This document shows, in pieces, positions 4,864 to 11,059 of a stretch of 14,543 nucleotides of DNA (the first letter of the stretch is position 1; each line of letters starts with the position of its first letter). The notes under the pieces are model-generated. The model was not told the DNA's origin and did no database searches. It saw only the letters and a list, made by a program, of their open reading frames with translations. The stretch comes from Chthoniobacteraceae bacterium (GTDB lineage: Bacteria; Verrucomicrobiota; Verrucomicrobiia; Chthoniobacterales; Chthoniobacteraceae): the NCBI GenBank assembly GCA_037190965.1, contig JBBCKI010000054.1, positions 1 to 14,543 of the forward strand, read 5' to 3'. Both the position numbers and the translations under genes were made by a program.

Positions 4864-5757
4864 ATGCGATATGACGTGATCATCATCGGGGGAAGCTACG
4901 CGGGAATGGCGGCAGCCCTTCAGCTTCTCCGGGCGCGGAGGTCTGTGCTGGTAATCGACGCCGGTGAGCGGCGAAATCGCTTCGCCAGCCATTCGCATGG
5001 GTTTCTCGGACAGGATGGAGTCGATCCCGGAGAGATCGCTTCGAACGCGCGCAAACAGCTCGAATCTTATCCTACCCTGACGTGGATTGAGGGTCGAGCC
5101 GAAGCGATCATCGGCCAAGCCAACGACTTCACCGTCTCAACGACCGACGGACAGGTCTATCACAGCCGCCGCATCCTTCTCGCTACAGGCGTATCCGACC
5201 AGCTCCCGCCGATCACAGGAATTGCGGAACGCTGGGGCAAGACCGTCTTCCATTGCCCCTATTGCCATGGATACGAACTCAACCAAGGCCGCATTGGCGT
5301 GATCGCGTCAGGCCCCATGTCAGTGCATCAAGCGGAACTCCTCACGGATTGGGGCGAAGTGACGTTCCTGATCAACGGAGTTGTGGAACTTGATTACGAA
5401 ATGCGGACCGCCCTGAAAGACAGGGGCGTGACGATTGAAGAAACGCTCATTAACCAGATCGAAGGCGCTGCCGACGTTCTCATGGTTGATGGCCGACGGC
5501 TCTCCTTTGCAGGCCTATTCACCGCGACGCGCTGCCTTCCCAGCCCCCTTGCCGAAGCGGCGGGATGCGCGATTGAAGAGACGCCCGCGGGCACACAGAT
5601 CCGCACTGATGCCGAGAATAAGACTTCGGTTTACGGAATATTTGCGTGCGGAGATGTGGCGCGTGCTCCGCATTCGGTGTCTCTCGCCGTGGGCAACGGT
5701 GCCATGGGCGGCATCCAGGTACATCGTTCGCTTCTCTGGCCGGAGAACAAGCACTGA
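4864..5757 (+). CDS. Thioredoxin-reductase-like NAD(P)/FAD-dependent oxidoreductase
   Basis: ATG at 4864 (MRYDVIIIGGSYAGMAAA, FAD-binding), ILLATG, a redox CxxC in FHCPYCHGYE, and TSVYGIFACGD; 297 aa. Confidence 0.92.
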   Translation: MRYDVIIIGGSYAGMAAALQLLRARRSVLVIDAGERRNRFASHSHGFLGQDGVDPGEIASNARKQLESYPTLTWIEGRAEAIIGQANDFTVSTTDGQVYHSRRILLATGVSDQLPPITGIAERWGKTVFHCPYCHGYELNQGRIGVIASGPMSVHQAELLTDWGEVTFLINGVVELDYEMRTALKDRGVTIEETLINQIEGAADVLMVDGRRLSFAGLFTATRCLPSPLAEAAGCAIEETPAGTQIRTDAENKTSVYGIFACGDVARAPHSVSLAVGNGAMGGIQVHRSLLWPENKH

Positions 5758-5760
5758 CCC

Positions 5761-5964
5761 GAATGGCGTTAAGTTAAGAGAGCTTTGGGATATTTACAGG
5801 GGTTCGCGGGTCGTTTTTTGGTGTCCCATGGGTGTCTTATGAGCATCCGAAAATCACAATGGCTCGTGAAGCCTTTAAGTCCGTTCGGCAGATTTCCTGA
5901 AACAGCCGAGAATATGCCCAAAATACCCGATTTTACCCTGATTGTGCTTAACTTAACGCCATTC
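5761..5964. mobile_element. MITE / internally deleted IS, IS4-like (204 bp)
   Basis: Perfect 18-bp TIRs GAATGGCGTTAAGTTAAG (5761-5778) and CTTAACTTAACGCCATTC (5947-5964), flanked by the 11-bp direct repeat AGCACTGACCC (5750-5760, 5965-5975). No transposase ORF. The family call is inferred from TSD length and TIR style. Confidence 0.9.
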
Positions 5965-6074
5965 AGCACTGACCCCTTTCCATACTTCTTTCCCTTCAAC
6001 TGGCGGTCCGTCACAAATGTGGTTTCCGCGCTTTTCTCCTTGCCTTCAGCGCCGGAAGACGGGAACTTTCGAGT

Positions 6075-6147
6075 GCTGGCGAGAGTCAGCCGGGACTTGA
6101 TAACCCCGTCCAGAACGGCTGGCAGTAGCCGAAAACCTATTGCCGTT
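6075..6147 (+). ncRNA. c4/CI-like antisense RNA candidate
   Basis: Hairpin GCTGGC-GAGA-GTCAGC (6075-6090, GNRA tetraloop), hairpin CGGG-ACTTGATAAC-CCCG (6091-6108) and a further stem at 6121-6144. TTGATAA and CCGTCCA are complementary to downstream TTATCAA (6231-6237) and TGGACGG (6223-6229). The ends are approximate. Confidence 0.6.
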
Positions 6148-6162
6148 TCCGGGGTATTCATA

Positions 6163-6280
6163 TGGCCGGGAGGCGGCGGCGCATGTCCAGGCCTTGTGGC
6201 TAAAGGCCGTCGCGGCTGTTTTTGGACGGCTTATCAACTCCCGGCCACCTTCGAGCAATCTAGGTGGCCGTTTTGTTTTT
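6163..6280 (+). promoter_or_regulatory. Antiterminator/terminator attenuator
   Basis: TGGCCGGGAG (6163-6172) pairs with CTCCCGGCCA (6238-6247). This is mutually exclusive with the terminator CGGCCACCT (6242-6250) / AGGTGGCCG (6262-6270) followed by TTTTGTTTTT (6271-6280). Confidence 0.75.
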
Positions 6281-6295
6281 AAAGCTGCCAATCCC

Positions 6296-6517
6296 ATGAA
6301 GACTGCCCAACGCAATATTTTTCACGCAAAAAGCGCCGAAGGACTCGCAGAATGCCTCGGCATCCTTTTGTTCCATCTGGACGCTGCGGCCCTCCCCGCC
6401 TCAAACCTCGAATCGCTTTGCATCGAAATTCACGCCCTTTCGGCTCACGTCGACGTGTTCAAACTCCGCGCCGCCGGGGAAATCGCCGCACGGCGCGACG
6501 CGCCCCGCAAGCCTTGA
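6296..6517 (+). CDS. Small hypothetical protein (73 aa) downstream of the attenuator
   Basis: ATG 15 bp after the terminator U-tract. MKTAQRNIFHAKSAEGLAECLGILLFHLD... looks helical and protein-like. No family recognised. Confidence 0.6.
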   Translation: MKTAQRNIFHAKSAEGLAECLGILLFHLDAAALPASNLESLCIEIHALSAHVDVFKLRAAGEIAARRDAPRKP

Positions 6518-6583
6518 TATTCCCCTCACGACAATGATTTGGCTGACGGGACACTAGTGTTTCGAAGGTGCTCCTGCGCACCA

Positions 6584-6658
6584 AAAGCGGCAGAGACCGC
6601 CGCAGTCCAAGACGTTTCATCGTGCACCATGCAGTCGCGAGTGCGTCTTGCGTGCGCC
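6584..6658. repeat. REP-like palindrome with a degenerate inverted partner
   Basis: Minus strand 6614-6584 reads CGTCTTGGACTGCGGCGGTCTCTGCCGCTTT (GCGGCGG/CTGCCGC stem). A partial inverted copy CGTCTTG-CGTGCGCC lies at 6644-6658. Confidence 0.5.
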
Positions 6659-6683: not shown

Positions 6684-6722
6684 AAAAAAGTCCCACCCCA
6701 AAACTCGGGGACGGGACTTTTT
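6684..6722. terminator. Bidirectional intrinsic terminator, copy 1
   Basis: AAAAAAGTCCC-ACCCC-AAAACTC-GGGG-AC-GGGACTTTTT, between the convergent 73-aa ORF and PEP-CTERM gene. Confidence 0.8.
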
Positions 6723-6830
6723 GGCGATCGACTTCAATGTCGTCCCTTTTCTTATGAGGCCGGACTTCCCGATCATGGGAAAAATCAAAGCTGATGCTCC
6801 AAGCTCCCGCGCCACGCGCTCAAGGCGCAT

Positions 6831-10990: not shown

Positions 10991-11029
10991 AAAAAAGTCC
11001 CGCCCCCAAACTCGGGGTCGGGACTTTTT
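10991..11029. terminator. Bidirectional intrinsic terminator, copy 2
   Basis: AAAAAAGTCCCG-CCCC-CAAACTC-GGGG-T-CGGGACTTTTT, 30 bp downstream of the autotransporter stop. Confidence 0.85.
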
Positions 11030-11059
11030 GATGATTGGCTTTAACCAACAGGTCGCTTC

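What the first reader, a model, noticed from the sequence alone, without database searches (positions are those of the whole stretch)
6040..6517. Orphan c4/CI-like antisense-RNA attenuator controlling a 73-aa unknown protein, with no phage genes nearby
Seen in sequence: a possible -35 TTGCCT (6040); a GNRA-capped hairpin (6075-6090); a second hairpin exposing TTGATAA, followed by CCGTCCA; their complements TGGACGG-C-TTATCAA (6223-6237) directly beside the 3' arm of a perfect 10-bp antiterminator (6163-6172 / 6238-6247); and an overlapping 9-bp terminator with U-tract 15 bp before the ATG. Established: P1/P7 c4 RNA and P4 CI RNA are processed from their own leader and pair with bipartite downstream targets, stopping transcription before toxic or antirepressor genes (icd-ant, kil). 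Inference: this is a stand-alone version. Accumulated RNA would open the antiterminator and shut off the ORF, giving transient expression on entry into a naive cell, or a toxin-antitoxin or phage-immunity-like module.
Basis: partly seen in the sequence, partly recalled or inferred. Interest (0 to 1): 0.82.

Follow-up and report, generated by a model that had tools for sequence, protein, structure and literature searches.

The report
Self-addressed C4-like RNA switch leader
This chromosomal leader is laid out like the c4 immunity RNA of phage P1 and carries its own matching target, which co-varies with it across many relatives; it likely shuts off the small unknown gene behind it as the RNA builds up, though no RNA or switching has been measured.

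Summary
By comparison with annotated phage P1, the upstream hairpins (6075-6119) are the a1/b1 target, and the downstream three-way junction (6164-6249) is the C4-like RNA. That unit is a sub-threshold relative of Rfam sRNA-Xcc1; its closing stem is the supposed antiterminator. Unlike P1, there is no a2/b2 site and no icd-ant. A terminator overlaps the RNA's 3' end instead. The genome holds three copies with different pairing codes, and code positions diverge five times faster than the rest of the leader. Relatives precede 93 unrelated gene clusters, and a related leader precedes traM on Rhizobiales conjugative plasmids, including a Ti plasmid. The 73-aa ORF is likely a real gene of a small genus-level family, with no evidence of toxicity. 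Repression by the accumulated RNA is the likeliest logic (0.5), but my folding models disagree on the sign. This scan already found the family in other genomes. New variant of a known kind.

The parts
6040..6068 (+). Likely sigma-70-type promoter: -35 TTGCCT (6040-6045), 17-nt spacer, -10 GAACTT (6063-6068); start near 6075
   Evidence: Sequence; same spacing in alignment A1; motif in 65 of 150 relatives vs 11 of 150 shuffles; not found by the consensus scan
6075..6090 (+). Hairpin H1 (GAGA loop), 5' end of the leader
   Evidence: 5 of 5 pairs changed on both sides, 84% of cells paired
6091..6108 (+). Hairpin H2 exposing the a1-like target TTGATAA (6097-6103); P1 has TTGACAG at this place
   Evidence: covariation with 6231-6237
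6106..6119 (+). b1-like target, the hypervariable address, with a conserved CGG tail
6121..6144 (+). Hairpin H3; followed by only 3 U, so not a strong terminator here
   Evidence: Top covarying pair 6126:6139; 93% paired; U-tract count
6142..6152 (+). Strand able to pair with 6166-6177 and block the RNA's closing stem (predicted relay helix)
   Evidence: Folding; conserved, but little covariation
6164..6249 (+). C4/sRNA-Xcc1-like antisense RNA unit: closing stem P1 (6163-6172/6238-6247), P2 with conserved AUGUCCA...UAAAG internal loop (6173-6213), P3 with b'-like loop (6214-6230), a'-like junction TTATCAA (6231-6237), 3' ACC
   Evidence: (RF02221 36.1 bits, cut-off 53)
6242..6280 (+). Terminator-like hairpin (6242-6250/6262-6270) overlapping the 3' arm of P1, with U-tract 6271-6280
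   Evidence: overlapping hairpin plus at least 5 T in 60 of 165 relatives
6296..6517 (+). 73-aa ORF, predicted all-helical, small genus-level family, function unknown
   Evidence: 12 synonymous vs 7 non-synonymous codon changes against the C19 paralogue

Best explanation
The leader holds a C4-like antisense RNA unit (6164-6249) and, upstream in the same transcript, its own two-part target (6097-6119); the RNA is likely cut out of the transcript and likely acts in trans on new transcripts of its own locus, which would favour the overlapping terminator and shut off the 73-aa ORF. Shown: the layout, the seed pairing, and a separate pairing code per copy. Inferred from P1/P4: RNase P-type processing and trans action. 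Inferred from folding models: without the RNA, the target pairs in cis with the relay strand or with the RNA unit and hides part of the terminator arm (read-through). With the RNA bound, the relay strand is freed, blocks the closing stem, and the terminator forms. The expected result is a burst of expression in a cell lacking that code, then a low steady level, with each copy insulated from its paralogues.
For: Covariation: long-range pairs 6109-6115:6220-6226 and 6099-6101:6233-6235 have z 11-20 and 83-92% pairing in 165 sequences, Neff 135. In 48 aligned leaders 7 of 7 pairs of each seed helix change on both sides, 97-98% paired, 0 of 500 shuffles. Cognate duplex mean -23.5 vs -16.9 kcal/mol non-cognate; the window's RNA ranks its own leader first of 165. 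Layout equals P1 a1/b1-c4. Trans action: in 36 disjoint close pairs, code positions differ at 0.335 vs 0.067 elsewhere, with 85 compensated changes. The 91%-identical C19 paralogue has four compensated changes, and cross-pairing is weaker (-19.0 and -13.5 vs -25.6 and -22.5). The only exact bipartite target in the genome is its own leader. Sign: relay strand more open when the target is bound in 27 vs 15 of 56 terminator-type and 57 vs 14 of 93 other leaders. A crude co-transcriptional model gave more terminator with the target occupied in the window (0.65 vs 0.16) and in 6 of 8 leaders. CI binding to the upstream seqA is described as causing termination (PMC4825925 section 20).
Against: Quasi-equilibrium folding gives the opposite sign: terminator more favourable in the free state in 38 of 57 leaders vs 10 when blocked, and barrier lower when free in 29 vs 7. 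P1 exceeds 0.5 in 0 of 150 free leaders but in 57 of 150 when the whole target is blocked. At equilibrium the window's terminator wins in every state tested, 0.92-1.0. The kinetic model almost never forms P1, which covariation shows is real, so it is unreliable. The one search test is biased because blocking bases removes partners. The own leader is the best partner in only 47 of 165 (top ten in 116); 45 changed code pairs in close relatives are unpaired in one member. The relay helix shows little covariation.
Confidence: 0.5

Rival explanations
1. Same parts, opposite sign: the free transcript folds into a self-paired rod and terminates. The mature RNA, bound in trans to the target, lets H3 and then P1 form, giving read-through and more RNA, a self-sustaining ON state (bistable, IsrK-like activation).
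For: (P1 forms only when the target is occupied; terminator easier in the free state in 38 of 57). Helix parity H3alt/H3/relay/P1/terminator. IsrK activates its own long transcript in trans (PMC4825925).
Against: Searches point the other way. P1 C4 and P4 CI repress. Relatives L028 and L049 keep a U-rich terminator after H3 and an a2/b2-like site, the classical repressive design.
Confidence: 0.23
2. A purely cis-acting attenuator: the seed pairing is an intramolecular long-range helix or pseudoknot, and the trigger is a protein, a ligand or transcription speed acting at the invariant AUGUCCA...UAAAG loop.
For: Cis pairing is 1.0 at equilibrium. No a2/b2 site. The internal loop is nearly invariant in A4, although my search pattern selected for it.
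Against: Cis-only pairing gives no reason for codes to diverge five times faster than the rest. sRNA-Xcc1 is a discrete 88-nt RNA on Northern blots (PMC2996969).
Confidence: 0.15
3. One reading: the upstream roughly 75-nt double hairpin is the active small RNA and binds the downstream site to open P1.
For: IsrK is a 5'-terminal short RNA that acts in trans on its own long transcript. A relative's upstream part scores weakly with isrK (27.2 bits, cut-off 50).
Against: No U-tract to end a short RNA here (4 of 165 relatives have one). Blocking 6215-6237 leaves P1 at 1.0 at the decision point. The P1 annotation makes the upstream part the target.
Confidence: 0.07
4. A stranded relic of a mobile element that no longer regulates anything in this genome.
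For: Patchy distribution: 5 of 41 related genomes searched. It sits among repeats and next to a MITE-like insert. Some relatives have lost the target (L013, L023).
Against: All pairings are intact, recent changes between paralogues are compensated, and the ORF shows synonymous bias.
Confidence: 0.05

Closest known systems
C4 antisense RNA of phages P1/P7 (Rfam RF01695) with its a1/b1 leader (RF03163)
   Same: Promoter, hairpin, hairpin exposing a TTGA-type heptamer, second target, third hairpin, then a three-way junction with a loop seed, a junction heptamer and a 3' ACC.
   Different: No Rfam hit in the window; my model R1 does not hit P1 C4 at E up to 5. Shorter closing stem, long P2 with an AUGUCCA/UAAAG loop. 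No a2/b2, no icd-ant. A terminator overlaps the RNA's 3' end. Chromosomal.
sRNA-Xcc1 (Rfam RF02221)
   Same: Full-length model match over 6164-6254 with the same topology; 13 of 20 relatives also match weakly. Stand-alone cassettes before symE are reported (bioRxiv 10.1101/2025.06.18.660453).
   Different: 36.1 bits against a cut-off of 53; different P2 loop. The passages I read treat it as a trans-acting sRNA with predicted host targets and mention no self-target.
P4 CI RNA/seqA and Gifsy-1 IsrK (RF01394)/STnc1160
   Same: Upstream short structured unit complementary to a downstream processed RNA in one transcript; alternative cis folds (PMC4825925).
   Different: No U-rich terminator after the upstream unit, no seqC-like site, no conserved leader ORF (the in-frame 125-codon extension is shifted in the C19 paralogue).
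Acinetobacter baumannii Group 1 chromosomal C4-like sRNAs (PMC5320573)
   Same: Multiple chromosomal, phage-derived C4-type RNAs with variable seed loops, apparently processed from longer transcripts.
   Different: Those match Rfam C4. The passages read propose phage or host targets, not an overlapping terminator switch.

Membership tests
C4 antisense RNA (RF01695) | Score at or above the Rfam cut-off (45 bits) | tested here: not met
   No hit in the window at E up to 5; best among 20 relatives 24 bits
C4 antisense RNA (RF01695) | Three-way junction P1/P2/P3 with loop and junction seeds and 3' ACC | tested here: met
C4 antisense RNA (RF01695) | Upstream a1/b1 target in the same transcript | tested here: met
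C4 antisense RNA (RF01695) | Downstream a2/b2 target at the first gene's ribosome site | tested here: not met
   Window not among the 8 of 165 candidates; only one exact bipartite target in the genome
C4 antisense RNA (RF01695) | Controls icd and antirepressor genes of a prophage | tested here: not met
   Icd vs 73-aa family probability 0.1; no phage hallmark genes in 11 window proteins
C4 antisense RNA (RF01695) | Processing by RNase P | not testable with these tools
   Needs RNA data
sRNA-Xcc1 (RF02221) | Score at or above the cut-off (53 bits) | tested here: not met
   36.1 bits; 0 of 26 related genomes over the cut-off; 26-37 bits in 13 of 20 relatives
sRNA-Xcc1 (RF02221) | Closing stem, two inner stems, junction, over the full model length | tested here: met
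   Model positions 1-87 matched
sRNA-Xcc1 (RF02221) | Discrete RNA of about 88 nt | not testable with these tools
   Needs RNA data
P4 seqA/CI and IsrK (RF01394) | U-rich terminator ending the short upstream RNA | tested here: not met
   3 U after H3; 4 of 165 relatives have a U-tract
P4 seqA/CI and IsrK (RF01394) | isrK model score | tested here: not met
   No hit in the window; 27.2 bits in L116
Type I toxin-antitoxin | Toxic small protein | not testable with these tools
   No Pfam, PHROG, NCBIfam or PDB fold match
Type I toxin-antitoxin | Antitoxin RNA pairs with the toxin's translation start region | tested here: not met
   The only exact bipartite target is the leader's own 5' part

The most novel reading that the evidence does not exclude
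A phage-immunity RNA has been domesticated into a portable, self-addressed switch: each copy makes an RNA that reads only its own leader and locks that locus into a heritable ON or OFF state. It would give gene-by-gene RNA memory for accessory genes across Verrucomicrobiota and Alphaproteobacteria, and an unrecognised RNA layer over traM, the brake on quorum-sensing conjugation of Ti and other RepABC plasmids.
Probability: 0.25. Interest if true: 0.82.

Novelty: new variant of a known kind. Interest (0 to 1): 0.52.

Why it matters
It suggests a function for sRNA-Xcc1-like RNAs, described as orphan trans-acting sRNAs in the passages I read: they may be C4-type RNAs that read their own leader. 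The family offers a natural set of orthogonal RNA address pairs (110 distinct b-type codes among 165). A related leader sits before traM in genetically tractable Rhizobiales, so the open question of its sign is directly testable, and the answer would bear on how newly transferred plasmids time their conjugation. This particular locus, in an unnamed assembled genome with an unknown 73-aa gene, is one more member and not the best test case.

Tried and rejected
Expression: no RNA holder was listed for the region; this is no evidence either way. Protein function: no family in Pfam, PHROGs or NCBIfam. Single-sequence search found only the paralogue; the profile found 3 proteins and 6 representatives, the weakest a four-helix-bundle protein at E 8e-6, taken as a helical look-alike. 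Model pLDDT 72.5, three helices, no PDB fold at E up to 0.001. An Atlas search with homologue P0004 scored below its recognition threshold; the DUF222 leads are not used. Homology with P1 Icd (also 73 aa) rejected. QfsR as the identity of the plasmid leader rejected: different place and no core motif. A conserved read-through leader peptide rejected (frame shifted in C19). A translational output in the GGAAGG subtype not supported: 3 vs 4 of 39. Phage collection: no meaningful match; viral contigs gave 2 loci. mis-placed the P1 arm and was redone. The cross-pairing table mis-located two targets and is not used; values are. Rows dropped: of 232 motif hits, 212 had enough flank, 23 lacked the closing stem, 189 were kept, 165 non-redundant. 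Direction modelling did not converge.

Full report
Observation. The module lies between a thioredoxin-reductase-like oxidoreductase gene and a convergent PEP-CTERM-type gene. None of 11 window proteins is a phage hallmark. Rfam gives no C4, c4-a1b1 or isrK hit, only sRNA-Xcc1 over 6164-6254 at 36.1 bits against a cut-off of 53.

Copies in the genome. There are three. G000:C19:97506-98002 is 91% identical, carries the same ORF (90% identical) between queA-like and ilvD-like genes (named from their translations, not from a family scan), and differs by four adjacent bases in the upstream site matched by four in the downstream site. G000:C48 near 58300-58520 has both seeds recoded and fronts a DprA-like protein, phrog_768. 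Cognate duplexes are stronger than crossed ones: -25.6 and -22.5 against -19.0 and -13.5 kcal/mol.

Family. A DNA search matched 9 of 41 related genomes, some weakly; my RNA model found 5 of 41. Record titles are mostly Akkermansiaceae/Luteolibacter, Chthoniobacteraceae and Micavibrio-like Alphaproteobacteria. That the window's organism is a verrucomicrobium is my inference from these. Of 232 hits, 212 had flanks, 189 had the closing stem and 165 were non-redundant. The scan pattern fixed part of P2, so conservation of that core is partly built in; the seeds were not part of the pattern.

Covariation. In the 165-sequence alignment the top mutual-information pairs are H3 (6124-6126:6139-6141), the two long-range seed helices (z 11-20) and pairs of P1 and P2. 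On 48 of these leaders, picked by hand across subgroups, both seed helices have changes on both sides at 7 of 7 pairs; overall 94% of cells pair against 74% shuffled and 36-47% for slid controls. These controls do not remove relatedness. In 36 disjoint pairs of close relatives the code positions differ at 0.335 against 0.067 elsewhere: 85 changes compensated, 9 G-U type, 45 unpaired in one member.

Which part is which. The P1 record annotates a1 (TTGACAG) in the second leader hairpin, b1 after it, C4 88 nt further on, then a2, b2 and icd. P1 C4 folds as closing stem, hairpin, seed hairpin, junction heptamer, closing stem, ACC; window 6164-6249 folds the same way. The c4-a1b1 alignments in the supplement of PMC2864571 show the same double hairpin as 6075-6108. 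Relatives give weak hits in the expected places: isrK and c4-a1b1 upstream in L116, C4 on the downstream unit in L126, sRNA-Xcc1 on the downstream unit in 13 of 20. So the upstream part is the target and the downstream part the RNA. The difference from P1 is the output: an a2/b2-like site in at most 8 of 165, a U-tract after H3 in 4 of 165, an overlapping terminator in 60 of 165.

Direction. Unresolved. The free transcript pairs target and seeds in cis; P1 exceeds 0.5 in 0 of 150 free leaders and in 57 of 150 with the whole target blocked. A switch calculation finds the terminator easier in the free state in 38 of 57, which means activation by the RNA. A home-made kinetic model finds more terminator with the target occupied in 6 of 8, which means repression, but it fails to form P1. 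The relay strand is more exposed when the target is bound, 84 vs 29 of 149, in a biased test. I choose repression at 0.5 on homology with C4 and CI plus these last two results, and give activation 0.23.

Cargo and context. 165 of 189 leaders have a first ATG ORF; these fall into 93 clusters. Of 80 representatives scanned, 15 hit Pfam: DNA methylases, GYF_2, HTH, TM2, PLD, HigB-like and others. Among 39 loci of about 6 kb (98 of 149 ORFs scanned), 6 had an integrase, recombinase or terminase and 9 a methylase or ResIII gene. Being without phage genes is therefore common in this subfamily. The 73-aa family was found in 3 of 61 related genomes, all one genus. Where the 5' end is assembled it follows this leader in 6 of 7 cases. 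Synonymous bias supports a real gene. Its function is unknown and nothing indicates toxicity.

traM. A distant search of plasmids hit the core before traM. One such leader matches 361 plasmid records; 5 of the 6 I opened lie directly before traM, including Ti plasmid pTi1D1487. Each of the six has its own compensated seeds, and the three not used to build R1 score 62-79 bits. It is not QfsR. That TraM is the TraR antiactivator is from the record annotation and my own knowledge.

Literature seen. PMC2864571: passages and supplement search hits. PMC4825925: abstract, section 12, first part of section 20. PMC5320573, PMC12189769, PMC2996969, PMC12197685, bioRxiv 10.1101/2025.06.18.660453 and 10.1101/2020.03.17.996009: passages. 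bioRxiv 10.1101/533729: first fifth and passages. Chen et al. 2011 on sRNA-Xcc1 was not held and may describe its context. The original P1 and P4 papers were not read; details of P4 termination beyond one search are recalled. Searches listed no paper that treats sRNA-Xcc1 as a C4-type self-targeting RNA or describes the traM leader; the two listed papers holding both terms annotate them separately. Most subscription papers and all bioRxiv supplements could not be seen, so absence from print is not established.

Earlier scan notes. The scan has reported this kind of leader many times in other genomes, mostly gut Alphaproteobacteria. My role assignment was noted before those look-ups; the phrase 'self-addressed' is taken from them.

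Verdict. Real, strongly supported structure; new variant of the C4/CI/sRNA-Xcc1 kind, not a member of any Rfam family by score; mechanism plausible but of unknown sign; interest 0.52.

Noticed in passing
L281-L283, L285, L286 (Rhizobiales plasmids, just upstream of traM): The same leader type, with its own compensated seed pairs, precedes traM in 5 of 6 plasmid loci opened; 361 plasmid records match one such leader.
   Followed up: partly
window 5750-5975: MITE-like insert of 204 bp (5761-5964) with perfect 18-bp terminal inverted repeats and 11-bp flanking direct repeats, right after the oxidoreductase stop codon. Single copy in the genome; repeat-like ends also at G000:C1 near 1066 and C14 near 1184. 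Resemblance to IS4-family ends is recalled, not tested.
   Followed up: partly
window 6501-6528: 28 bp covering the ORF's end match G000:C1:196-223 exactly, and similarity to the C19 copy stops at about 6525; possibly the module's right boundary. How the module moves is unexplained.
   Followed up: partly
window 6530-6612 and 6685-6723: Short dispersed repeats with 2-4 other copies in the genome, and a bidirectional terminator-like hairpin repeated at 10992-11030.
   Followed up: no
L028, L030, L049, L116, L258: Relatives with the classical design: U-rich terminator after H3 (L028, L030, L049, L116) and/or an a2/b2-like site before the first gene (L028, L049, L258), linking the subfamily to C4/CI.
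   Followed up: partly
L060, L064, L076, L088, L139, L140 (CP170506.1): One complete Chthoniobacteraceae chromosome has at least 8 units, some in tandem and some without their own target; the seed of L139 would fit the target of L064 in part, so cross-regulation is possible.
   Followed up: no
L013 and L023: RNA unit intact but upstream target missing.
   Followed up: no
window 6181 and 6205: G.G versus A.A covariation (152 vs 12) inside P2 suggests a non-canonical pair; both positions lie inside the search pattern.
   Followed up: no
L011 1028-1423: A regularly repeated array follows cas1/cas2-like ORFs just upstream of the leader in G005, probably a CRISPR array (seen in translations).
   Followed up: no
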